Below, one piece after another: positions 3,896 to 51,387 of a stretch of DNA of 64,000 bases; position 1 is the stretch's first letter; every line of letters begins with the position of its first letter. A program made the translations under genes and the position numbers. The notes below the pieces were generated by a model. That model had not been told where the DNA came from. It ran no database searches and saw only the letters and a program-made list of their open reading frames with translations. The DNA is from a virus. Location: UHGV virus genome UHGV-0218015. The stretch is one strand, 5' to 3'.

Positions 3896-6613
3896 TTAGA
3901 GAGTTTCGTCGGTGTTGTCGTCTGTACCGGTATCCGTCTCGTCCGTGTCTTCAGCAGAAACGTCTTCTTCCGATGTCGTATCGGTTTCCGTCGTTTCTTC
4001 ATCAGACATGTCCAAGTCTTCATCACCACCCAGATCGTCACCACCTAAGTCCTCATCACCACCTAAGCCGCCGTCGTCTTCAGACCCGCCACCAAAGTCG
4101 CTACCCCCGCCGAAGTTATTGGCGTCCTCAGGATTCAAATCAGCCGCTTTTGCTAAGGTTTCAACTTTACCTGTTGCACGCTTAGCTAACTGAATCAACG
4201 TTTTAGATGCTGATGCGATTTCATCAGAAATCATCTTGACGTTTTCGCCACGTTTATCTTCGTCGTAGATCAAATCAAACAGATCGGTTTCTATGCCCTG
4301 ATTGCGTAGCCAGTTACGCGTATAGAACGATTTAATCATCGTCTTGAGATCATCAGGCTGCATTTCGATACCTTCATTCTGAAGCATATTTGAAATGTCG
4401 TCGGTAACAACCAGATCCGCCAGTTTCTCAATGAACTCATAGCGTTTGTCGAACAGATCCGCTTGTGAAGAAGAAGCTGATGTGTCTGGTGGTGGTAAGG
4501 TGACTTTCATGCCATTGATGAACTTCGCCAGATACTCTGACGTTTGCTTGGTCAAGTCTTCACTTGTTACGTTAGGATTTTGATTGCGAATATATTCAAC
4601 GATAATACGAATCAATTCTGCTTGTAACTTAGGAGAGGCTTGCAAACTGTTTGTCACGTAGCGTGTTAACGGCGTAGACAGGATTTCTTGTTTCTTCACG
4701 ATTTGCTGAGTCACCAGCAGTGACTTGGAATAAATCTGCGAAGCAAATTCCAGGTTTTCTGGTGTCAAAACAAGATCCGGGTCTACACACGCGATGTGGC
4801 AAGTACGACGGAGTAAGTTTTCATCGATTTGCTGATCGGGCACTTTATACTCAGGCGTTGTGTCCGAAACTGACACTTTATGACTGGCGTAGTATTCGTT
4901 ACCCGTCACGTTAAATGCAATCCCGGCATTAGCCCCCATTGACCAGGCATCGTTGATATCGCCCCACATCGGTAAACGACGATTATAGGAGTTGAGGATA
5001 TCCGATTTAACTTGGTCAACTGTTTTCTGACCGTTCATATCGTCCGGCGATAACTCAATGTCATATTGCATGTGACGCGCTGAGTTCAACACTGAAGAGT
5101 TCATTGTTGCGAACAACAGCGCCATCCTGACCGTGGAGATGATAAAGGAACGTTCGGTAATAGACACCCCGATACCATCTTCGTTAAAGTCGGTTGCAAA
5201 GTAGCATAAGTTATTAACCGGGATATAGACAACCTGTGTGTGACGTTTTGCGAGGTGACGTGCCAGTAGAATACGACCGAAGGTTTCGGTAATTTTCATG
5301 CTGATTTCGGCACCACCCAACGCTTGACTTAAAGCGCGGGTAAATTCGTTCTCAGCAATCTCGCTGCAACGTGCACTTAAACGGTTGGCGATTTCAGGCG
5401 TTATACGAGAGGTATTACCCAAGCCTAAATTAGAGCGGTTGATAATACTGTCTGTCATGCCGTCGTTATTAAGGTAGTTCATAAAGTTCGCGTCCCCGTA
5501 AAGTGAGGAACGTGAGTTGATGAAGTTACCCATATCGTCAATAATGGTCAGAAACCCAATAGGGTTACGAACGTCGTCACCAATAACCAACGGGGCGGTA
5601 GACTCAGCAGGGAGTAAACATTCGAAATAGTCGATCTGGTTGTTTTCATCCATCGAAATAATCGGGATGTTACCATAAAGCTGAGTTTTTGGTGTACTTT
5701 TGTACGCTTCGTTCAGATCACCTAAGTTGATGAAGCCTTTTTCAGCTGCATCACGCTGACGATCGTTAAACTGTTGATTAACTTCATACGGCGCAGCACC
5801 TGTCGGTGTGGCAGGCTTTTCATATGCGGCTTGCTCTAATTGGCCGTAGAGACCAGTACGAGCGTTCTCATGCGCGATTCGACGATAAGCATGGGGCAGT
5901 AACGTGATACGTGGGTTGTCGGTAATCGAGATGTCCATTTCGAACTTATCTGAGAACATCTTATCATGGTTACTGAAATTGATTTTCAGTGATTGTGGTC
6001 CTTTAACAGGTCCACGGACACGACTCAGAATAGATTCCACACCTACGCGTTGCCCGTCATCTTGCGAGTTGATTGGGCCGAGAATACCGAGTTGTTCTTC
6101 GAAATACGCGGCTTGAGAACGACGCATGGATTCGGTAGCGATTTTGGTGTCTAAACCGAACAGCTGGTCAAATCCATTGTCCGAGATTATCATCACTGGA
6201 CTTGCGCCTTTTGTTTTTAACGCGTCGTAAATCCACTGATATAATTTCTTAGGTAATTGACGTACGTTATCATGATAATCACGCGTTGGTGTCAGTAAGT
6301 CATTACGTAAGTCAATTGGAATGTCTGCGATGTTGTCGTAAATCAACGTGGTGTTGATTAAGTCTTTTGTCGACAGCAAGCTCGAAGTTGCAATGGTAAC
6401 AATCGTTTCGAGTTCAGGTAACGCATCAAAGATACGTTCCGCATTTTTGATAGTACGAATACGCGAACTTACAATTCCTGCAAGTTCCTGACGTGTTGGC
6501 GTAGAACCACCCTCGCTACGCGTACCGCGTTGTTGCTGGGGTGCTGGGCCCGTAGTTTTACGAAGAATTGCAGCTACGGCGGGGTCGCCCGTTAATTTAC
6601 TAATATCGTCCAT
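3896..6613 (-). CDS. large hypothetical protein (905 aa) with highly acidic Gly/Asp/Glu/Thr-rich C-terminal tail; possible virion or portal-like protein
   Basis: Long - strand ORF with GGAGA RBS 5 nt upstream of ATG; C-terminal GGDEDLGGDDLGGDEDL...TDETDTGTDD low-complexity tail. Confidence 0.6.
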   Translation of the reverse strand: MDDISKLTGDPAVAAILRKTTGPAPQQQRGTRSEGGSTPTRQELAGIVSSRIRTIKNAERIFDALPELETIVTIATSSLLSTKDLINTTLIYDNIADIPIDLRNDLLTPTRDYHDNVRQLPKKLYQWIYDALKTKGASPVMIISDNGFDQLFGLDTKIATESMRRSQAAYFEEQLGILGPINSQDDGQRVGVESILSRVRGPVKGPQSLKINFSNHDKMFSDKFEMDISITDNPRITLLPHAYRRIAHENARTGLYGQLEQAAYEKPATPTGAAPYEVNQQFNDRQRDAAEKGFINLGDLNEAYKSTPKTQLYGNIPIISMDENNQIDYFECLLPAESTAPLVIGDDVRNPIGFLTIIDDMGNFINSRSSLYGDANFMNYLNNDGMTDSIINRSNLGLGNTSRITPEIANRLSARCSEIAENEFTRALSQALGGAEISMKITETFGRILLARHLAKRHTQVVYIPVNNLCYFATDFNEDGIGVSITERSFIISTVRMALLFATMNSSVLNSARHMQYDIELSPDDMNGQKTVDQVKSDILNSYNRRLPMWGDINDAWSMGANAGIAFNVTGNEYYASHKVSVSDTTPEYKVPDQQIDENLLRRTCHIACVDPDLVLTPENLEFASQIYSKSLLVTQQIVKKQEILSTPLTRYVTNSLQASPKLQAELIRIIVEYIRNQNPNVTSEDLTKQTSEYLAKFINGMKVTLPPPDTSASSSQADLFDKRYEFIEKLADLVVTDDISNMLQNEGIEMQPDDLKTMIKSFYTRNWLRNQGIETDLFDLIYDEDKRGENVKMISDEIASASKTLIQLAKRATGKVETLAKAADLNPEDANNFGGGSDFGGGSEDDGGLGGDEDLGGDDLGGDEDLDMSDEETTETDTTSEEDVSAEDTDETDTGTDDNTDETL

Positions 6614-14901: not shown

Positions 14902-16035
14902 ATGTCAACATTAGATTCCGATTTAGAAGTCCTTTGCGATGACTACGATCGATTGGTCGCGTTAGAGTCGCTTAATGTTAAAGACAATTATCCGGCGATT
15001 GTCGCTATCCGAAAACGGTGGGTTTTAGACGATGTGCAGGTTGCGCTAGAGTCTGCAGCGATGATGGAACGCGCGCAATTTGTTGCGGACACTGAGCCTT
15101 ACGCAGGAGTAGGTAAAGCGGTCGCACGCGCGACCGGCAGAGCGGTTAAAGGGGCTAGTCGTGTTGCTGGAAAGGCAGCGGTAGCGGGGGCTAAGGCAAC
15201 TGGAAACTTCGCAGGTAAGCATTCTAAGCAACTTGCGTTACGTTTTGTCGACTTCGCGGAAGCCGCCGGTAAAGAAGTCATAAAGGAATTAAAAGAAGCG
15301 ACGTCTAAAGCGACGACTTTAGAACGCAAACTGCAAAAGTTAACCGCAAAGCTAAGTTTACTCGGCATCAAGGACACGTTAAAGCCTGTCGACTGCGACA
15401 CGGGAAGTTGGACAACCAAAGTTTGTTTAGAAGACAAGCCTAACGTAAAAGCATGTATTGAATTCAGTAAGAACCTGAGCGCAATGGATGCGATGGTCAA
15501 CGAGTATACCGTTAAAACACGCACTATTATCGGTAAGAGCAAGAAAGTTACCGAGAGCGGTTTGGAGAAAGTGGGTCGGTCGACGAACTGGGCGATTAAA
15601 CGAAGCGCAGGACTGTTCGGTATTATTGATCCGTTTAAAACGGTGAAAGCGTATCCGTGGCCTGGTAACGTGGTGGTCGTTGAACACGACAACGGTAAGA
15701 TTGAGTGGGCGATTGCCCGCGATGGTGATTTTGGCCACACAATCAAATCTCTGAACTTGCACGAAATCGGTTCAGCTCTAGACGCTGTTAGAAACATTAT
15801 CCGAGCGTTACGTCAGCGTGGTACGAAACGACGTAGTGTTGGTTATACCGGTATTTACGATGAAGTTCAGCGAATGAAAAAAGAGCTGAAATCGTTAGAT
15901 GGCCGTGAGTTACGCGATGCTACTGTCCGGTATAAAAACGCGCTGCGTTTAGAAGATGCCTTTACTACTTCGTTGGTGCGTGTTGCGGAGGGCTTACTGG
16001 AATGGTGCAGGTTGTCGCTGATTGAGGTTAAATAA
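14902..16035 (+). CDS. hypothetical protein (377 aa) with Ala/Lys/Gly-rich segment
   Basis: Long ORF; GGTAAAGGATG context. Confidence 0.5.
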   Translation: MSTLDSDLEVLCDDYDRLVALESLNVKDNYPAIVAIRKRWVLDDVQVALESAAMMERAQFVADTEPYAGVGKAVARATGRAVKGASRVAGKAAVAGAKATGNFAGKHSKQLALRFVDFAEAAGKEVIKELKEATSKATTLERKLQKLTAKLSLLGIKDTLKPVDCDTGSWTTKVCLEDKPNVKACIEFSKNLSAMDAMVNEYTVKTRTIIGKSKKVTESGLEKVGRSTNWAIKRSAGLFGIIDPFKTVKAYPWPGNVVVVEHDNGKIEWAIARDGDFGHTIKSLNLHEIGSALDAVRNIIRALRQRGTKRRSVGYTGIYDEVQRMKKELKSLDGRELRDATVRYKNALRLEDAFTTSLVRVAEGLLEWCRLSLIEVK

Positions 16036-33799: not shown

Positions 33800-34345
33800 A
33801 TGGGGGTAGCATCCGGCTGGGTTGGAAGCTCAGCAAAGGCAGTAACCGGTCAGGAGTGGATGAGTGTGGCAGGTAATAAGCTTAAACTGAGCACGCCATT
33901 TAACATGTCGCAGATGGTCGGGCGTAGCGTAGAGGATCTTAAACTCGTTGTAGGCCGATCAACCTATGTTGTTTTGGTGCAGGCTACGAACACGCAGTGG
34001 GTTCCTATTACAAATACGTATGGGGGGTATTCGAACAACTCTACAACAACGGGTGCTGGTTCTACAGTATCGAATCGTGTGCAAACACAAAATGCGGCCG
34101 GTTCGGTGTCAGGTTCGATCTTGGGTTGTAGCGTCACACATCTTAGCCAAGTACAAAATACTGGTATTATCTACATGGCCCTAACCAATGGACCAAATCA
34201 GAATATTACGCTTTCGTTTAACGGAACGAAGATTACTTTTCTACCGTACTCCTACAGTAACGGCGTCCGGCGCTATGAGGCTAAGACGGCAACCAACTGG
34301 TTATTTAATCAGAACGGTGCAACAATTTCAATAAGTGTAGTCTAA
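33800..34345 (+). CDS. tail-fibre-module protein (181 aa), paralog of 34599..35105; possible distal adhesin
   Basis: N-terminus MGVASGWVGSSAKAVTGQEWMSVAGNKLKLSTPFNMSQMVGRS shared with the downstream paralog. Confidence 0.5.
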   Translation: MGVASGWVGSSAKAVTGQEWMSVAGNKLKLSTPFNMSQMVGRSVEDLKLVVGRSTYVVLVQATNTQWVPITNTYGGYSNNSTTTGAGSTVSNRVQTQNAAGSVSGSILGCSVTHLSQVQNTGIIYMALTNGPNQNITLSFNGTKITFLPYSYSNGVRRYEAKTATNWLFNQNGATISISVV

Positions 34346-34355
34346 GGACAGAAAG

Positions 34356-34586
34356 ATGTTAAGAAAAGTTTTACTGGGTTTCGCATTGCTTACAGTAAGT
34401 GGATGTCAACAACTACCCGAACCTGTATGTTACGGCACAGCTAAGCTGGGTAATGAAGAGACTACGATCAATATTTTCGACGTAAAAAAGCAGGGCAGAT
34501 ACACACTTTATAAAGCTGATCATCATTATAATTGGCGTTGGGTTGGGCGTGGTGCTTTCGATTCAATAACATGTAGAAAATCTTAA
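34356..34586 (+). CDS. small lipoprotein (76 aa), candidate Llp-like superinfection-exclusion or receptor-blocking lipoprotein
   Basis: Signal peptide with lipobox LTVSGC (MLRKVLLGFALLTVSG-C); located inside the fibre module. Confidence 0.55.
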   Translation: MLRKVLLGFALLTVSGCQQLPEPVCYGTAKLGNEETTINIFDVKKQGRYTLYKADHHYNWRWVGRGAFDSITCRKS

Positions 34587-34598
34587 CAGGAGATCGCG

Positions 34599-35105
34599 AT
34601 GGGGGGGGTAACCGGTTCGTGGGTCGGTTCTTCGGCCAAGAACGAAACGGGCGAACAATGGATGAGCGCTGCTGGTAGTAAATTAGGATTGGGTAGACCT
34701 TTTATGATGAGTCAAATGGTGGGACGATCTATGGGCTGTAAAATTGCAACCGCTGCATATAGCGATTCTTTAGGTAAGAAATGGGGCGCAGTAGGACCAA
34801 GCTGGCCGTTAAACCAGAAAAATCAGGGAACCATTCAAAACGCGGGTAACTGCGGGGTGGGAACTTTAGTAGGTATTGAGTTACAGTTAACGACGATAGT
34901 TGCCAACGCAAAGCCTACTTTAGCGGTTTACTTACAAGGAGGCAGAGCCTCTAACATTACCGTAAATTTAGGTGGTAACACCTGCGCGCTGGCCTATCAG
35001 CAGGTTATTAACGGACAGCATTATTACTGGACTAATAACATCAGCGCTGCGTTCCAAAACGTGATGAAATCGACAGGCGCACTGCGTGATTTGAGAATTA
35101 GCTAA
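34599..35105 (+). CDS. tail-fibre-module protein (168 aa), paralog of 33800..34345; start codon fused to a G8 tract
   Basis: MGGVTGSWVGSSAKNETGEQWMSAAGSKL...MSQMVGRS; ATG followed by GGGGGGG (34601-34608). Confidence 0.5.
   Translation: MGGVTGSWVGSSAKNETGEQWMSAAGSKLGLGRPFMMSQMVGRSMGCKIATAAYSDSLGKKWGAVGPSWPLNQKNQGTIQNAGNCGVGTLVGIELQLTTIVANAKPTLAVYLQGGRASNITVNLGGNTCALAYQQVINGQHYYWTNNISAAFQNVMKSTGALRDLRIS
34601..34608. repeat. G8 homopolymer inside the start of gene 34599
   Basis: ATGGGGGGGGTAACC read directly. Confidence 0.9.
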
Positions 35106-46909: not shown

Positions 46910-47500
46910 ATGGCCGAACGTTGGACTAAAGAAGGTATTATTGAATCAAAAACAGATTTAGAGGGTGGGTACGTCAATGACCCTGACGATAAAGGTGGGG
47001 AAACCTGTCACGGGGTAACACTGACAACTGCACGCGAATACGGGTACAAAGGAAGAATGAAAGATCTGACCCGTGCGCAAGCGTTTGATATTTACGATCG
47101 TGGTTGGTGGAAGAAACTTAAACTCGATGAGATTTTCGCTATCTCGCCGATACTCGCCGACAGGATGTTTGATTTTGGTATTAACTCTGGTCGTGTTAAC
47201 TGTGTGAAATCGTTACAACGTATTCTCAACGTTTTAAATAACGAAGGGAAACTTTACGCAGATATTGACACCGATGGTGGTATGGGACCTAAAACACTAG
47301 GTGCTCTGAATGCTTATCTGAATTACCGTAAAGGCGAGGGATTAGGCATCTTAATCTTTGCGTTAATCTCACATCAGGTAACCTACTACACGGAAATCTC
47401 CGAAAAGCGTAAGAAGAATGAAAAATTCGCTTACGGCTGGTACGGACGCGTGTACAGGGAAATGCCGGATTATGTAGTGAAGGCGGGGTTAGTAAAATGA
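46910..47500 (+). CDS. endolysin, glycoside hydrolase family 108 (lysozyme-like) with C-terminal peptidoglycan-binding domain
   Basis: LEGGYVNDPDDKGGETCHGVT matches the GH108 catalytic-site signature; AGAGGAGTTAAAGAAA-ATG RBS. Confidence 0.8.
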   Translation: MAERWTKEGIIESKTDLEGGYVNDPDDKGGETCHGVTLTTAREYGYKGRMKDLTRAQAFDIYDRGWWKKLKLDEIFAISPILADRMFDFGINSGRVNCVKSLQRILNVLNNEGKLYADIDTDGGMGPKTLGALNAYLNYRKGEGLGILIFALISHQVTYYTEISEKRKKNEKFAYGWYGRVYREMPDYVVKAGLVK

Positions 47501-47601
47501 ATTGGTTTGCTAAACTCTTAGCACTATTGTGGAAAGCGTTAACGTCTGGACGGAAACGTAAAGACGAAAAGCGTGGGTACGAATTTTTCTGGTTTCTATA
47601 A
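47497..47601 (+). CDS. small hydrophobic peptide (34 aa), candidate lysis accessory (holin-like or spanin-like) protein; not in ORF track
   Basis: ATG overlaps endolysin stop (ATGA); MNWFAKLLALLWKALTSGRKRKDEKRGYEFFWFL, amphipathic N-terminus and basic C-terminus. Confidence 0.3.
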   Translation: MNWFAKLLALLWKALTSGRKRKDEKRGYEFFWFL

Positions 47602-47616: not shown

Positions 47617-48282
47617 ATGGAGAAGCTTCAATATAAACGTTTAGACAATAAGTGGTTTGTATTAACGGAGGATTACCATTATCCGTTTACGTTACGCGAG
47701 ATTTATCACGACCACGTACACTTAGACCGTGCGGTTTATTTAACGGGTGTATTGCCTGACACGCAACTGTGGTTAACAGCACCGAAAGGGTTCGTTACCG
47801 ATTTAGCGTCAATTCCTGATCACCTCCAGGGAATTTTCCATCCTGACGGACCGTGGGCACCTGCGGCCTGTATTCACGACTTACTCTATCAAAAATGCAA
47901 CACGGAGCGTAGCTATCCCATGACACCGGGTGGTAACGTTTCGCGTTTCATCGATAAAGAGTTCTCTGACTTAACTTTCCTGCGTATTATGCAGTCGTTG
48001 GAAATCTCGCCTTATATCTGCCAAACATTTTATAAGGCCGTTGTTGAATTCGGCTGGGATGCCTACGTAGATCCTAATGCAAAGCCATCCTACAGCACTA
48101 ACGCGTTTCGTACGTTAGATTACAATCGAAACTATTTATTCGTTCGCGAGTTTAAGGAACCTGCAATCCCTGACCACGAACGTATTGATATCACCACAGA
48201 TTGTCCCGTTAATGTCAAATACCTGAACATCAAACGGGCTTTTCTGTCTGGGAGGGAAGATGTTTCATCCAAATCCGAGTAA
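47617..48282 (+). CDS. hypothetical protein (about 221 aa; ATG 47617 preferred over track start 47608)
   Basis: AGGGAAGG RBS before ATG 47617. Confidence 0.5.
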   Translation: MEKLQYKRLDNKWFVLTEDYHYPFTLREIYHDHVHLDRAVYLTGVLPDTQLWLTAPKGFVTDLASIPDHLQGIFHPDGPWAPAACIHDLLYQKCNTERSYPMTPGGNVSRFIDKEFSDLTFLRIMQSLEISPYICQTFYKAVVEFGWDAYVDPNAKPSYSTNAFRTLDYNRNYLFVREFKEPAIPDHERIDITTDCPVNVKYLNIKRAFLSGREDVSSKSE

Positions 48283-48775
48283 CTTTAAACTCAGAGAGTT
48301 AGTACCACAGTCCTATATTGCCAAATACGGCGATTCCGCAATTCGGTTTATGAATCCGTTGTTAATGATCTCCCTACAACAGATTCGTAATCGTTTCGGC
48401 AGAATGGTGATTAACTCAACTGCCGCACAACAGCGCGGACTAAGAACCTTAGATTTCTTTATTAATCAAGAAAAGCCTAAGGGTGGTAGTTATAAACAAC
48501 GTGCGTTGCAGCTTTACGCCGATTCAGGAAGTCAACACAAATTCGGTAACGCCATTGATGCAACGTTGTTGGATAGCACCGTAAAACAGGTTCACGACTA
48601 TATCGCTGCTAACCCTGACGAGTTTCCGTTCATTCACTTTATTGAATGTGACATCAGTTGGTTGCACATTGACGTTCGTAACCAGCCTAACATTACTTTC
48701 TGGTCACCAAATCGTGGTACTGTGAAAGTTGTTAAGCAAAAACCAATCGATTGGAGCGCCTTAGTCGAGATTTAA
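48260..48775 (+). CDS. putative peptidase M15-family cell-wall hydrolase (171 aa)
   Basis: SQHKFGNAIDA (H-x-x-G-x-A-x-D zinc-binding motif) and downstream WLHID histidine typical of M15 peptidases. Confidence 0.5.
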   Translation: MFHPNPSNFKLRELVPQSYIAKYGDSAIRFMNPLLMISLQQIRNRFGRMVINSTAAQQRGLRTLDFFINQEKPKGGSYKQRALQLYADSGSQHKFGNAIDATLLDSTVKQVHDYIAANPDEFPFIHFIECDISWLHIDVRNQPNITFWSPNRGTVKVVKQKPIDWSALVEI

Positions 48776-48860
48776 CTATTTCTAAGGTGTTTATACCTTA
48801 TTTTGTATAAAGACGCTCAGAATGCGTTTTACGCACGATTTGGCGGTTAAAATGAATATA

Positions 48861-48895
48861 CCCTACTCCCGATAAGGAGTAGGGTAGTTTTTATT
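48861..48895. terminator. terminator hairpin between convergent genes
   Basis: Stem CCCTACTCC / CGATAA / GGAGTAGGG followed by TAGTTTTTATT. Confidence 0.7.
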
Positions 48896-49382
48896 GTTCC
48901 GCAGGATGGAGCATTGTTCCAGTGTCAGACGCTACACCTTCTTTACAGTGGAAGAAAGTAATGCCTTTACCATCACCCGTTTTATATTCTAAAGTAGAAT
49001 ACGCAAACGTTGGCGTTTTTGAAAGTAAGCCATTTACACGATAGTAACGTTGTCCTGTGATAGGATCAATATTCCCATTAACTTTACCTAATAAATCTTT
49101 ATAAAGTTGCGGCGACTCAATCTTGCCGTTTGGCCAAGTGGCTACCCAGTTAGCACCAGTATCGAGTACAGTTACTGACCCTAGCATTATATTAGTCGAG
49201 CTGACGACAGGTTTGTAATTTGCAAAATCTTGCTCTGCACCCATACAGGTGTAAATAACCATATCATGTGGCTCCACCGGCACAGTCGAGAATTGGCCGT
49301 TACCATTCGGTTGTAAGGCACATCCTGCCAATGAAAAAACACCAACCATAACGATAAGAAAACGTTTTATCATACTCTTCAC
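48891..49382 (-). CDS. lipoprotein (163 aa), isolated - strand gene in a + strand region (moron-like)
   Basis: Signal peptide plus lipobox: MKSMIKRFLIVMVGVFSLAG-C; own upstream intergenic region (49383-49514) and downstream terminator. Confidence 0.7.
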   Translation of the reverse strand: MKSMIKRFLIVMVGVFSLAGCALQPNGNGQFSTVPVEPHDMVIYTCMGAEQDFANYKPVVSSTNIMLGSVTVLDTGANWVATWPNGKIESPQLYKDLLGKVNGNIDPITGQRYYRVNGLLSKTPTFAYSTLEYKTGDGKGITFFHCKEGVASDTGTMLHPAEQ

Positions 49383-49514
49383 CTTTTATAAAAAAGTTAA
49401 AGTTAATTAATTTTACAAGCAACCCTTCTGCCGCCTGTCATAACTATTAACACCGCTTCTATAATCCGAACAATACTATGCAAACCACCCATACTACTTA
49501 CGAGGTAAAAAACA

Positions 49515-50045
49515 ATGGCTAAAACTTTTCAACAGCAGCTTATCGAACTTATTAACACTAAAAACAGCTCTCTGAGCTCCGCTCTCACCGTAGCTGATGT
49601 TGACTTTAGTGCTGTCGCTGACTTCACCGGAGAAGCTGGCCGCAACACTAAAATTACTCTGACCGCCAAGGCAGAAAGCCAGAACTTCAAAGGCGAGAAA
49701 GAATTCCACTATACTCGTCTTTCCTGCGACATCGTTGGTGAAGTTGAAGTAACTGCACCTACTACCGATTTCGATTCACCAACGAAAATCCTGGCAAAAG
49801 TTAACGCAGCCATGGCTGAGAAAGGGTACACCGATGACGAGTTCGGTGAAAACGACCTGCAAACTATTTCCCGTGAAGAAGAAGGCAAAACCATTTACGT
49901 AGTAACTGTTGTGGCTGGACACCTGAAGTTCCTGCCAGGTACTGTTGCAACGTATAAAGTTACTCCTCCGGCTATTGAGAAAGTAGTATTGAACGGTTTG
50001 GAAGGTGAACTGGATGGCTTCACCGCACCAGCGCCTAAAGAGTAA
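49515..50045 (+). CDS. member 3 of paralog family (176 aa)
   Basis: FQQQLIELINTKNSSLSSALTVADVDF...NTKITLTAKAESQNFKGEKEFHYTRL parallels 50113 product. Confidence 0.55.
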   Translation: MAKTFQQQLIELINTKNSSLSSALTVADVDFSAVADFTGEAGRNTKITLTAKAESQNFKGEKEFHYTRLSCDIVGEVEVTAPTTDFDSPTKILAKVNAAMAEKGYTDDEFGENDLQTISREEEGKTIYVVTVVAGHLKFLPGTVATYKVTPPAIEKVVLNGLEGELDGFTAPAPKE

Positions 50046-50667: not shown

Positions 50668-50720
50668 AAAATAATAAGTTTACCTACCTCCTTTACGGAG
50701 GTAGGTACTTTTTTATTTTA
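50668..50720. terminator. bidirectional terminator between convergent + and - gene blocks
   Basis: Stem TACCTACCTCC / TTTAC / GGAGGTAGGTA flanked by an A-run upstream and TTTTTTATTTTA downstream. Confidence 0.8.
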
Positions 50721-51387
50721 TCCCCATTTCCAAAGCGTACGCTCGGATGGTATCATAATCACGCCGCTCGGCTAAAAGCCGAAGCTCTTTTTTCTGCTCG
50801 GTTTTCTGCCCATGCAATTTCTGATCACGTTTCACAATCGCTGCCATCAGTTCTTTGCATTGTTCCAACGTGAACGGTTCTATTCGTGCATTCGACGTAT
50901 CCAACCAATATTCCGGGGCGGTTTCAGACTGAATATACTGACTTAACATCTGTCGCGATGCGTCGTCTGTTTGGAAATAACACCCATTTAACTTAATGGG
51001 TGCATAACGCTGTTCCTCATAAAGACGTTCCATCTCTATCATGATTTTCTGAACATCTTGATAGATATAACGTGCAGTTGATCGAACGTTGTTTCGTATT
51101 TCTTCTAAATCAATCTCAAGAACATCAGCGATAAATTCTTTCGCTTTCTGTAGAGTGAAATTAGCCTCAATCTCCGACATATCGTAACTACGCATCTGTT
51201 CGATTGCGGCCTTATCTTCCAACCCATCGATTAATTTGTAGTGTAGAAGCGCACAAAAACCCGCACGACCACGATCCTCGTTGCCAATTCGTTCCATGTA
51301 ATTACCGTGGCGATCGATTGGAAGCCCTCGTGAGAAATAACGTTGACGTATTTCCTCTTTCGTTAAGCCTTCGTCAATAACAGACAT
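50713..51387 (-). CDS. hypothetical protein (224 aa), last gene of the rSAM/Cys-rich operon
   Basis: - strand ORF overlapping upstream gene by 25 nt; ends at bidirectional terminator. Confidence 0.5.
   Translation of the reverse strand: MSVIDEGLTKEEIRQRYFSRGLPIDRHGNYMERIGNEDRGRAGFCALLHYKLIDGLEDKAAIEQMRSYDMSEIEANFTLQKAKEFIADVLEIDLEEIRNNVRSTARYIYQDVQKIMIEMERLYEEQRYAPIKLNGCYFQTDDASRQMLSQYIQSETAPEYWLDTSNARIEPFTLEQCKELMAAIVKRDQKLHGQKTEQKKELRLLAERRDYDTIRAYALEMGIK

What the first reader, a model, noticed from the sequence alone, without database searches (positions are those of the whole stretch)
48861..49514. Isolated reverse-strand lipoprotein gene with its own promoter region and terminator (moron-like insertion)
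The gene 48891..49382 is the only - strand gene in about 40 kb of + strand genes. It encodes a lipoprotein (MKSMIKRFLIVMVGVFSLAG-C) and is bracketed by a convergent terminator (48861..48895) and a 132-bp divergent intergenic region with a consensus TATAAT at 49460..49465. Autonomous expression units of this kind typically encode host-interaction or exclusion functions.
Basis: partly seen in the sequence, partly recalled or inferred. Interest (0 to 1): 0.5.

Follow-up and report, generated by a model that had tools for sequence, protein, structure and literature searches.

The report
Conserved jumbo-phage outer-membrane lipoprotein gene
The flagged gene is real and encodes a lipid-anchored beta-barrel protein of unknown function, but it is an old, conserved accessory gene of SPN3US-like giant phages with phage-type (not host-type) expression signals, not a recent "moron" insertion.

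Summary
A lone minus-strand gene (48891..49373; the true start is probably ATG 49373, not GTG 49382) encodes a 160-aa lipoprotein precursor (lipobox LAG|C, Ala at +2, so outer membrane). A strong bidirectional hairpin terminator (48859..48886) follows it and a 141-bp divergent intergenic region precedes it.

- The window comes from an SPN3US-like nucleus-forming jumbo phage.
- The gene (phrog_9559; SPN3US gp159) is under purifying selection and has ordinary GC content.
- It is a single-gene reverse unit in four genera. It is co-directional in Goslar and two metagenome lineages, and absent from Derbicusvirus.
- The cited TATAAT lies on the other strand and is at chance level.
- The conserved signal is an invariant TATGAC (49442..49437, minus strand) followed by a covarying 5' hairpin. 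This resembles the phiKZ non-virion RNA polymerase promoter.

The AlphaFold model is an 8-stranded beta-barrel with no significant sequence or fold family. An exhaustive search found only 16 clusters, and the members I identified are phage. SPN3US virion proteomics does not list gp159.

Function is unknown. My best guess is an envelope-level exclusion or protection factor (about 0.3). Rivals are a lysis accessory and a peptidoglycan-hydrolase inhibitor.

A genuine Cor exclusion lipoprotein sits elsewhere in the window, at 34356..34586.

The parts
48891..49373 (-). CDS for a 160-aa lipoprotein precursor. The mature protein is 143 aa, 15.5 kDa, pI 5.5. Member of phrog_9559; homologue of SPN3US gp159.
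   Evidence: ORF. phrog_9559 match, E 1.4e-65. 55 phage records by tblastn. omega 0.12 against relative L005. Start chosen from the homologue alignment and the Shine-Dalgarno position.
49320..49373 (-). Signal peptide (residues 1-17, MIKRFLIVMVGVFSLAG) plus the lipidated Cys18. The lipobox L-A-G-C is at 49331..49320. Ala at +2 predicts Lol-dependent sorting to the outer membrane.
   Evidence: Read directly from the sequence. The Cys is invariant in alignment A2. No member has Asp at +2.
49380..49385 (-). Shine-Dalgarno AAGGTG, 6 nt before ATG 49373.
   Evidence: Sequence. Purine-rich Shine-Dalgarno at the same place in relatives.
49437..49442 (-). Invariant TATGAC. Predicted phage-RNA-polymerase promoter core, with the transcription start at G 49439 (phiKZ-type TATG with G = +1).
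   Evidence: TATGAC is present 39-67 nt upstream of the start codon in all 12 SPN3US-like loci aligned (10 distinct phages plus two near-identical metagenome copies), while the flanks have diverged. The only TATGACAG in the window is here. phiKZ late promoters are defined by TATG with G = +1 (PMC4666361). Function here is inferred, not shown.
49415..49439 (-). Predicted 5'-terminal stem-loop of the lipoprotein mRNA. It starts at or next to +1.
   Evidence: RNAfold gives -11.4 kcal/mol in the window. An equivalent hairpin occurs in all 11 sequences tested, with different stem sequences (GACAG/CUGU, GACGA/UCGUC, GACAAU/AUUGUC, CCCG/CGGG). In 9 of 11, at most 2% of shuffles do as well.
49458..49466 (-). 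Upstream element GATTATAGA at about -27..-19. It aligns with AAAwTwACr in relatives and resembles the phiKZ middle-promoter motif AAanTTACc.
   Evidence: Anchored alignment and motif description in PMC4666361. Weak evidence: the bipartite pattern TTAC-N13-16-TATG is not enriched in the window (10 found, 10.3 expected).
48859..48886 (.). Bidirectional intrinsic terminator hairpin (12 bp). T-tracts follow on both strands. It ends both the lipoprotein transcript and the convergent DUF1353-M15 transcript.
   Evidence: Conserved, with compensatory changes, in relatives.
49477..49480 (+). TATG of the divergent promoter for the DUF7941 gene at 49515. Predicted transcription start at G 49480.
   Evidence: A TATG sits 28-34 nt before the divergent gene's start in all 12 loci aligned, with a T-rich upstream run in most of them.
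49515..50045 (+). Divergent partner gene: a 176-aa DUF7941 paralogue, homologue of the abundant SPN3US virion protein gp160. The pairing with the lipoprotein gene is kept in four genera.
   Evidence: Pfam and PHROG matches. Synteny. gp160 in virions and in tailless particles.

Best explanation
What it is (confidence about 0.85). A conserved, non-essential accessory gene of enterobacterial SPN3US-like nucleus-forming jumbo phages. It forms a one-gene transcription unit. Transcription is predicted to start at a phage-specific TATG-type promoter (start at G 49439) read by the phage's own RNA polymerase in middle or late infection. The mRNA carries a 5' stem-loop and ends at a strong bidirectional terminator.

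The product is exported by Sec, lipidated at Cys18 (Lgt, LspA, Lnt) and sorted by Lol to the outer membrane. There a short linker tethers a roughly 125-residue 8-stranded beta-barrel, which probably carries a Cys43-Cys143 disulfide (ATG numbering). The protein is not packaged into virions.

What it does (commitment, about 0.3). It acts on the envelope of the infected cell as an exclusion or protection factor. Through its invariant surface loop (SPQLYKDLLGK-x-DG) it would bind a conserved envelope component of Enterobacterales. That would block productive adsorption or DNA entry by further phages, or protect progeny from being wasted on cell debris. The idea is the same as T5 Llp or Cor, but with an unrelated fold and a target that is conserved across host genera rather than a variable receptor.

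Shown: gene, lipobox, conservation, synteny, terminator, fold model, absence from the virion proteome.
Inferred: promoter class, outer-membrane location, disulfide, function.
For: - Real gene and family: phrog_9559 E 1.4e-65; 55 jumbo-phage records; omega 0.12.
- Lipobox invariant, two further invariant Cys, and no Asp at +2.
- Single-gene unit in opposite orientation kept in Seoulvirus, Erskinevirus, Machinavirus and Wellingtonvirus, even though the neighbouring endolysin-DUF1353 block moves or inverts.
- TATGAC plus a covarying 5' hairpin is conserved across all SPN3US-like loci aligned. The phiKZ precedent is in PMC4666361.
- Terminator.
- AlphaFold2 model has mean pLDDT 82.7, above 90 in the core, and is an 8-strand barrel.
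- Not in the SPN3US virion mass-spectrometry table.
- For the exclusion reading: as far as I know, characterised lipoproteins of Gram-negative phages are mostly o-spanins or receptor blockers, and this one fails the spanin features.
- T5 llp is likewise a lone reverse-oriented gene among virion genes (my own knowledge).
- In Goslar the homologue lies directly after the tail-fibre and tail-fibre-assembly genes, the classic position of cor-type genes.
- It is dispensable at genus level.
Against: - The predicted promoter is of the TATG (middle/late) type. It is not the early-type element seen three times in the window, whereas classical exclusion genes are early.
- The mature domain is well conserved across phages of Salmonella, Erwinia, Proteus and E. 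coli. That is unlike receptor blockers, which track variable receptors.
- SPN3US is reported to use flagella as its receptor (PMC11428620).
- The window phage already carries a true Cor homologue inside its tail-fibre adhesin module.
- In the SPN3US-like genera the gene always lies within about 2 kb of the endolysin block, which favours a lysis link.
Confidence: 0.3

Rival explanations
1. Lysis accessory. This would be an outer-membrane lipoprotein made late that takes part in the last step of lysis. It would either replace or assist a spanin in disrupting the outer membrane, or control the timing of the neighbouring endolysin cassette.
For: - In Seoulvirus, Erskinevirus, Machinavirus and Wellingtonvirus and in the window, the gene lies 0-2 kb from a block made of a GH108 endolysin, a small membrane-active peptide and a DUF1353 gene.
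- In L016 it abuts the M15 and DUF1353 genes.
- The predicted promoter is not of the early type.
- The only other lipobox ORF in the 64 kb is the Cor homologue, so no obvious spanin pair lies in the window.
Against: - No adjacent, overlapping or embedded i-spanin-like gene. None of the neighbours has an N-terminal transmembrane segment.
- The protein is a well-folded barrel (core pLDDT above 90) with 6% Pro, unlike the short, largely unstructured o-spanins.
- No hit to any spanin or lysis family in Pfam at E <= 10 except a chance signal-peptide match to Lysis_col in one member.
- It is oriented against the lysis genes in Seoulvirus, Erskinevirus and Wellingtonvirus.
- Derbicusvirus lacks it.
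- In Goslar and in L017 no peptidoglycan hydrolase is annotated among the neighbouring genes.
Confidence: 0.22
2. Periplasmic inhibitor of a peptidoglycan hydrolase. This would be an MliC/PliC-like barrel working like T4 Spackle. It would neutralise the virion-borne wall-degrading enzyme of superinfecting sister phages, or restrain the phage's own endolysin.
For: - MliC is itself an outer-membrane lipoprotein (my own knowledge).
- The neighbours are a GH108 muramidase and an M15/LAS peptidase (motif SQHKFGNAID...HID).
- The SPN3US homologue of the M15 peptidase, gp158, is a low-copy, non-head virion protein (PMC5105663).
- A conserved loop would fit a conserved enzyme target.
Against: - No match to the Pfam MliC model even at E <= 10.
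- I did not see the MliC/PliC signature motifs, as I recall them (SxSGAxY, YxxxTKG), in the sequence.
- Presence and absence do not match. Derbicusvirus has the M15 peptidase but no lipoprotein. The Erskinevirus, Machinavirus and Wellingtonvirus loci examined carry the lipoprotein but no M15 gene, although PMC5105663 reports a gp158 homologue somewhere in phiEaH2.
- GH108 is not a C-type lysozyme.
Confidence: 0.12
3. One reading: a recently inserted moron, that is, a horizontally acquired cassette with a host-type sigma-70 promoter (TATAAT 49460) and terminator, dropped into a plus-strand operon.
For: - It has its own terminator and an opposite orientation.
- It is absent from one related genus.
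Against: - It is present at the same junction in at least five lineages with 39-90% identity, so it is old.
- Its composition is not deviant.
- No bacterial or non-jumbo-phage relatives were found in 1.84 billion representatives.
- The TATAAT is on the wrong strand, is not part of a scored sigma-70 site, and is not conserved.
- The genome encodes its own RNA polymerase machinery, by homology with SPN3US and phiKZ (PMC5105663; PMC4666361).
Confidence: 0.04

Closest known systems
T5 Llp (receptor-blocking lipoprotein) and its BF23/T5-like counterparts
   Same: A lipoprotein of a strictly lytic phage that is not part of the virion. It is encoded as a lone gene in the opposite orientation among virion genes. 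Its role is to protect the infected cell and the progeny.
   Different: Llp is about 60 aa when mature, lies next to the receptor-binding protein gene, is expressed early, and varies with the receptor (my own knowledge). The protein here is a 143-aa barrel with no detectable sequence or fold similarity. Its promoter is of the non-early type, and it is conserved across phages of different host genera.
Cor (phi80 / N15 / HK022 superinfection exclusion lipoprotein, phrog_1119)
   Same: An outer-membrane lipoprotein accessory gene. In Goslar the homologue sits after the tail-fibre genes, where cor genes sit.
   Different: No homology. The window already has a true Cor homologue at 34356..34586 (E 1.3e-25, 61% identity to Stx-phage Cor). 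The flagged gene is therefore not the phage's Cor.
o-spanins (Rz1 type)
   Same: A phage lipoprotein with an outer-membrane sorting signal, encoded near the endolysin.
   Different: There is no i-spanin partner gene. The protein is large and globular rather than short and proline-rich, it sits on the opposite strand, and it does not match any spanin family.
MliC/PliC lysozyme inhibitors and T4 Spackle
   Same: The 8-stranded barrel core superposes on PliC-family proteins at 2.5-2.7 A. MliC is an outer-membrane lipoprotein. Spackle shows that phages do export inhibitors of tail lysozymes.
phiKZ late/middle promoters read by the non-virion RNA polymerase
   Same: A TATG motif that is invariant across relatives, an upstream A/T-rich ...TTAC-like element at about -24, and divergent TATG promoters in one intergenic region.
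   Different: It has not been mapped experimentally in any SPN3US-like phage. The motif is too short to be statistically enriched within the window. The extended form TATGAC plus an immediate hairpin is specific to this gene.

Membership tests
Bacterial-type lipoprotein (Lgt/LspA substrate) | N-terminal signal peptide with a positively charged start, a hydrophobic core and a lipobox [LVI][ASTVI][GAS]C | tested here: met
   The sequence is MIKRFLIVMVGVFSLAG|C. The Cys is invariant in the 28-sequence alignment, and variants such as LASC, LTGC, LSGC, LGGC, LTAC and LIAC all fit the lipobox.
Bacterial-type lipoprotein (Lgt/LspA substrate) | Actual lipidation and outer-membrane localisation | not testable with these tools
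   Only the +2 rule can be applied. The +2 residue is Ala, Ser or Val and never Asp.
Moron (Juhala/Hendrix sense) | Present in some but not other closely related genomes, as an insertion between genes that are adjacent elsewhere | tested here: not met
   It is present in all 55 SPN3US-like and Goslar records and in metagenome lineages at the same junction. It is missing only from the genus Derbicusvirus, which is more simply explained as a loss.
Moron (Juhala/Hendrix sense) | Own promoter and terminator | tested here: met
   The terminator is strong and conserved. A conserved promoter-like TATGAC is present, but it is of the phage type and is predicted only.
Moron (Juhala/Hendrix sense) | Deviant nucleotide composition | tested here: not met
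   GC is 41.4% against 44.0 +/- 3.2% for windows of the same size.
o-spanin | Partner i-spanin gene adjacent, overlapping or embedding it | tested here: not met
   Both neighbours are on the other strand, and none has an N-terminal transmembrane segment.
o-spanin | Short, proline-rich, largely unstructured periplasmic part | tested here: not met
   The mature protein is 143 aa with 6.3% Pro, and the model is an 8-strand barrel with core pLDDT above 90.
Cor / Llp receptor-blocking lipoproteins | Sequence or fold membership | tested here: not met
Cor / Llp receptor-blocking lipoproteins | Gene adjacent to the receptor-binding or tail-fibre gene | tested here: inconclusive
   This holds in Goslar. 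In the window the tail-fibre and adhesin module is 14 kb away and carries its own Cor.
Cor / Llp receptor-blocking lipoproteins | Blocks adsorption or DNA entry when expressed | not testable with these tools
   Needs plating-efficiency and adsorption assays.
MliC/PliC lysozyme inhibitors (PF09864) | Match to the family HMM | tested here: not met
   No hit in any of 28 members at E <= 10. I also did not see the signature motifs as I recall them (SxSGAxY, YxxxTKG), but I did not run a formal motif search.
MliC/PliC lysozyme inhibitors (PF09864) | 8-stranded beta-barrel fold | tested here: met
phiKZ-type non-virion RNA polymerase promoter | TATG with transcription starting at the G | tested here: inconclusive
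   The motif is present and invariant across all SPN3US-like loci aligned. The start site is not measurable here, and the 4-mer is not enriched in the window's intergenic DNA (24 found, 21.4 expected).

The most novel reading that the evidence does not exclude
The protein founds a family of outer-membrane beta-barrel lipoproteins found so far only in jumbo phages, transcribed by the phage's own polymerase, that carries out an envelope function not yet described for nucleus-forming phages. One possibility is a Spackle-like, MliC-fold inhibitor of virion-borne wall hydrolases. Another is a spanin-independent outer-membrane lysis or lysis-timing factor. In either case it would act through the invariant SPQLYKDLLGK loop on a target common to Enterobacterales.
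Probability: 0.15. Interest if true: 0.6.

Novelty: new variant of a known kind. Interest (0 to 1): 0.38.

Why it matters
Very little is known about how nucleus-forming jumbo phages deal with the cell envelope, in exclusion, lysis or protection of progeny. This is a conserved, exported, non-virion protein of enterobacterial members of that group. It has no relatives outside the group and a clean, compact expression unit, which makes it an easy target for deletion and trans-expression tests.

The conserved TATGAC-plus-hairpin signal also gives a concrete, testable candidate promoter for SPN3US-like phages, whose promoters are, as far as I know, unmapped.

The practical correction is that the window's real 'exclusion moron' is the Cor homologue at 34356..34586, not this gene.

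Tried and rejected
- Family searches on the protein and its homologues gave nothing beyond phrog_9559. This covers Pfam at E <= 0.01 and at E <= 10 on all 28 family members, NCBIfam, PADLOC, and a PDB sequence profile search.
- The 'DUF2846' label on one GenBank homologue was not reproduced by Pfam.
- Word-based and exhaustive protein searches found no relative I could tie to a bacterial chromosome or a small phage. The two clusters with 'Salmonella' or 'Proteus' names include contigs of up to about 227 kb, which I take to be phage contigs inside bacterial assemblies.
- Foldseek against AFDB50 was unavailable. Foldseek against PDB gave no hit below 1e-3.
- I tested Goslar gp087 as a possible DUF1353 homologue, which would have linked the lipoprotein to DUF1353 over a long evolutionary distance. 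There was no similarity.
- I tested M15 peptidase co-occurrence as support for an inhibitor/partner model. The distributions do not match.
- I tried to show within-window enrichment of TATG and of TTAC-N13-16-TATG. Neither is enriched, so the promoter claim rests on conservation across phages and the phiKZ precedent.
- Rfam found no known RNA family in the window or in the two intergenic regions.
- The SPN3US time-course proteomics paper (PMC6384053) and the SPN3US genome announcement were not held. Expression timing of gp159 could therefore not be looked up.
- Literature searches found no paper on this family.
- I considered a fused-chain complex prediction but did not run it, because chimeric sequences are not accepted and unpaired alignments would not be informative.
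Full report
**1. What is in the sequence**

The region 48600..49800 contains a minus-strand ORF, 48891..49382. It is the only credible minus-strand gene between the 905-aa gene at 3896..6613 and the minus-strand block that begins at 50713. All other minus-strand ORFs of 90 aa or more in that span lie inside longer plus-strand genes. One example is 15099..15797, which sits inside the gene at 14902..16035, matched to an 'internal head protein' PHROG at E 1.9e-73.

The ATG six bases downstream (49373) gives MIKRFLIVMVGVFSLAG|C, and homologues start at that position. The product is 160 aa. The mature protein is 143 aa, 15.5 kDa, pI 5.5, with 6.3% Pro.

The lipobox Cys is invariant in a 28-sequence alignment, as are two further Cys (C46 and C146 in GTG numbering). 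One partial Proteus sequence lacks the lipobox Cys. The +2 residue is never Asp. By the Lol +2 rule (established knowledge) this predicts an outer-membrane lipoprotein. The two extra Cys suggest a periplasmic disulfide; this is an inference.

**2. The terminator**

The hairpin 48859..48886 starts 5 nt after the stop codon. It folds at -20.4 kcal/mol, z = -5.35, and none of 200 shuffles folds as well. T-rich runs follow it on both strands. It therefore also terminates the convergent plus-strand DUF1353-M15 transcript. An equivalent GC-rich hairpin with compensatory stem changes follows the homologous gene in all 12 related loci examined.

**3. Which phage this is**

- The lipoprotein matches phrog_9559 (unknown function, E 1.4e-65).
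- By tblastn it matches 55 phage records. All are jumbo phages of about 200-250 kb: Salmonella SPN3US-like phages, Erwinia phiEaH2, Asesino, Kwan, Huxley and others, Proteus phage 7, and more distantly E. coli phage Goslar at 33% identity.
- The closest relative (90% identity) lies on metagenome contigs of about 220-226 kb.
- Neighbouring genes match the SPN3US gene order: radical-SAM pair, DUF4376, DUF7941 paralogues, GH108 endolysin, DUF1353, M15 peptidase.
- SPN3US is classified in Seoulvirus, Chimalliviridae, and is reported to use flagella as its receptor (PMC11428620).

**4. Is it a moron-like insertion?**

No. The homologue (SPN3US gp159, phiEaH2 gp078, STsAS_134, Asesino gp174, ChrisDB gp174, Kwan gp173, Huxley gp164, Caitlin gp163) is present in Seoulvirus, Erskinevirus, Machinavirus and Wellingtonvirus. 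In each it is a single gene, divergent from a DUF7941 gene of about 175 aa and convergent with the next gene. This holds even though the adjacent endolysin / small-ORF / DUF1353 block changes side and strand between genera.

In more distant lineages the gene is co-directional with its neighbours:
- Goslar gp088 follows the tail-fibre and tail-fibre-assembly genes.
- In metagenome locus L016 it lies 13 nt after the DUF7941 array and is convergent with M15-DUF1353-radical SAM.
- In L017 and L018 it is co-directional.

Derbicusvirus (CR5, EarlPhillipIV) lacks it. There the M15 gene is followed directly by DUF7941 genes, and tblastn finds no copy.

GC content is unremarkable: 41.4% against 44.0 +/- 3.2%. 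Against the 90%-identical relative, dN/dS is 0.12, and most substitutions fall in the signal peptide.

The gene is therefore an old, vertically inherited accessory gene that one genus has lost. Its autonomy as a reverse-strand unit is a conserved property of the SPN3US-like clade.

**5. Promoter**

It is not part of any sigma-70-like site in the scan, which found fewer sites than shuffles (14 against 20.3). It is conserved only in the closest relatives.

When the divergent intergenic regions of 12 loci (10 distinct phages plus two near-identical metagenome copies) are anchored and aligned, two invariant features stand out against otherwise diverged sequence:

(a) TATGAC on the lipoprotein strand, 39-67 nt before the start codon. 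In the window this is T49442 to C49437.

(b) TATG on the other strand, 28-34 nt before the DUF7941 gene. In the window this is 49477..49480.

In phiKZ, late promoters of the non-virion RNA polymerase are defined by TATG with the G as +1. Every base of that motif is required in vitro. Middle promoters add AAanTTACc at about -24 (PMC4666361). The lipoprotein promoters of the relatives carry AAAwTwACr at about -27..-18, for example TTTTACAG in ChrisDB and AATTACG in STsAS.

Starting at the predicted +1, every sequence forms a hairpin whose stem sequence differs between genera (GACAG/CUGU, GACGA/UCGUC, GACAAU/AUUGUC, CCCG/CGGG). In 9 of 11 cases, at most 2% of shuffles do as well.

A clearly different, long, AT-rich element, TTTTC(T)CAGATATATATTACyTAGGwGAGAG, occurs three times in the window in front of other genes. 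It looks like the extended early-promoter type described for phiKZ-like phages (PMC11512511, and my own recollection of the phiKZ early consensus). The lipoprotein gene does not have it.

Caveats. TATG and the bipartite pattern are too short to be enriched within the window, and no transcription start has been mapped in this phage group. The promoter class, and hence middle/late timing, is an inference.

**6. The protein**

An AlphaFold2 model built on the 28-sequence alignment has mean pLDDT 82.7, pTM 0.70, and above 90 through residues 40-150. It shows a signal helix, a disordered linker and eight beta-strands.

- Foldseek against the PDB has no hit below 1e-3.
- In BFVD, apart from family members, there are weak matches to other uncharacterised phage 'lipoproteins' (Joad, Possum, Scapp, an RB49 protein).
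- Pfam at E <= 10 on all members, NCBIfam, PADLOC and a PDB sequence profile search give nothing.
- An exhaustive HMM search of 1.84 billion representative proteins finds only 16 clusters. The family appears confined to jumbo phages.
- The most conserved stretch is (E)SPQLYKDLLGK-x-DG, in a loop between strands. This is the likely functional site, by inference.
- SPN3US gp159 is absent from the virion mass-spectrometry table, which lists gp152-155, gp160 and gp167-171 (PMC5105663 Table S4). It therefore acts in the infected cell.

**7. Function**

Nothing here proves a function. Three readings fit the anatomy.

(i) Envelope exclusion or protection, in the manner of Llp or Cor.
- For: it is a non-virion lipoprotein of a lytic phage, in its own unit among virion genes, sited next to the tail fibre in Goslar, and dispensable.
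- Against: it has a non-early promoter type, it is conserved across host genera, the SPN3US receptor is flagella, and the same genome carries a true Cor.

(ii) Lysis accessory.
- For: it is always close to the endolysin cassette in SPN3US-like genera, the promoter is not of the early type, and no spanin pair is evident in the window.
- Against: there is no i-spanin partner, the protein is a globular barrel, it sits on the opposite strand, it is absent from Derbicusvirus, and no lysis gene is annotated beside it in Goslar or L017.

(iii) MliC- or Spackle-like inhibitor of a wall hydrolase.
- For: the closest superpositions are on PliC-family proteins, it neighbours GH108 and M15, and SPN3US gp158 (the M15 homologue) is a virion protein.
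- Against: the fold scores are generic, the MliC HMM does not match, and its distribution does not match that of M15.

I commit to (i) at about 0.3, with (ii) at about 0.22 and (iii) at about 0.12. The remainder is 'other envelope function'. One such option is binding of a hydrophobic ligand, as many of the calycin-like barrels among the fold hits do.

**8. Comparison with what is known, and novelty**

The gene belongs to an already catalogued but uncharacterised family: phrog_9559, with some UniProt entries called 'Lipoprotein'. It is not a member of the Llp, Cor, spanin, Bor or MliC families. As a kind of thing, a phage-encoded outer-membrane lipoprotein expressed from its own unit, it is familiar. 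What differs is the fold, the restriction to enterobacterial nucleus-forming phages, and the phage-polymerase-type promoter with a conserved 5' hairpin.

I rate it a new variant of a known kind, of moderate interest (0.38). The gene is ordinary in being a conserved hypothetical, but it is a tractable entry point to envelope biology in this phage family.

**9. By-products**

- A real Cor superinfection-exclusion lipoprotein (34356..34586, phrog_1119 E 1.3e-25, 61% identical to Stx-phage Cor) lies between two gp38-like adhesin genes downstream of the long tail fibre. No jumbo phage appears among the listed tblastn hits or in the organism summary.
- A 34-aa cationic amphipathic ORF is translationally coupled to the endolysin.
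- A conserved element of about 55 nt lies in the 3' UTR before the bidirectional terminator.
- The DUF7941 gene next door is hypervariable: 53% identity between phages whose flanking genes are 90-100% identical.

Noticed in passing
window 34356..34586 (+): An unannotated-size ORF of 76 aa with a lipobox (MLRKVLLGFALLTVSG|C) is a genuine Cor superinfection-exclusion lipoprotein. It matches phrog_1119 at E 1.3e-25 and is 61% identical to Stx-phage Cor and 40% to phi80, HK022 and N15 Cor. It sits between two gp38-like tail-fibre adhesin genes (33800..34345 and 34599..35105), downstream of the 1479-aa long tail fibre gene. No jumbo phage appears among the listed hits or in the organism summary of the 83 phage-database records. 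The identical protein occurs on many metagenome contigs of about 225 kb in the same context. This is the window's real moron-like exclusion gene.
   Followed up: yes
window 47497..47601 (+): A 34-aa cationic, amphipathic ORF (MNWFAKLLALLWKALTSGRKRKDEKRGYEFFWFL) overlaps the stop codon of the GH108 endolysin gene (ATGA). It is 100% identical in relative L005. Other genera carry a 34-50 aa peptide in the same slot, and the two I translated (Huxley, Kwan) each have a hydrophobic segment. It may be a holin-like or outer-membrane-disrupting lysis peptide.
   Followed up: partly
window 18822, 37895, 42268 (+), each about 30 nt: There are three copies of TTTTC(T)CAGATATATATTACyTAGGwGAGAG. Each lies just upstream of a plus-strand gene and is followed by a hairpin whose stem differs between copies. 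It looks like the extended AT-rich early-promoter type of phiKZ-like phages and is distinct from the TATG sites.
   Followed up: partly
window ~48805..48858 (+): A conserved stretch of about 55 nt with small stem-loops (…AAAGACGCTCAGAATGCGTTTTACGCAC…) lies in the 3' UTR of the DUF1353-M15 transcript, just before the bidirectional terminator. It is conserved in Seoulvirus, Erskinevirus and Wellingtonvirus and absent from Machinavirus and Derbicusvirus. There is no Rfam match. It could be a 3'-UTR-derived small RNA or a regulatory element.
   Followed up: partly
window 49515..50045 (+) and 50713..51387 (-): The DUF7941 gene divergent from the lipoprotein gene is only 53% identical to its counterpart in metagenome relative L005, and the DUF4376 gene is only 66% identical. 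The surrounding genes are 87-100% identical. These are local hypervariable or mosaic spots. In SPN3US the DUF7941 paralogues (gp138-155, gp160) stay with tailless particles, so they are head-associated.
   Followed up: partly
window 48260..48775 (+): The gene convergent with the lipoprotein gene is an M15/LAS-type peptidase (motif SQHKFGNAID…HID). Related genes are annotated as endolysins in Vibrio phages. Its SPN3US homologue, gp158, was reported as a low-copy virion protein that is not part of the head. The phage therefore carries a second, probably virion-borne, wall hydrolase beside the GH108 endolysin.
   Followed up: partly
P0002 / P0003 (homologue clusters): Close homologues are labelled as Salmonella Agona and Proteus mirabilis proteins. 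The P0002 cluster includes contigs of up to about 227 kb. This suggests whole jumbo-phage genomes travelling in bacterial isolate assemblies, either as a carrier state or as contamination.
   Followed up: no
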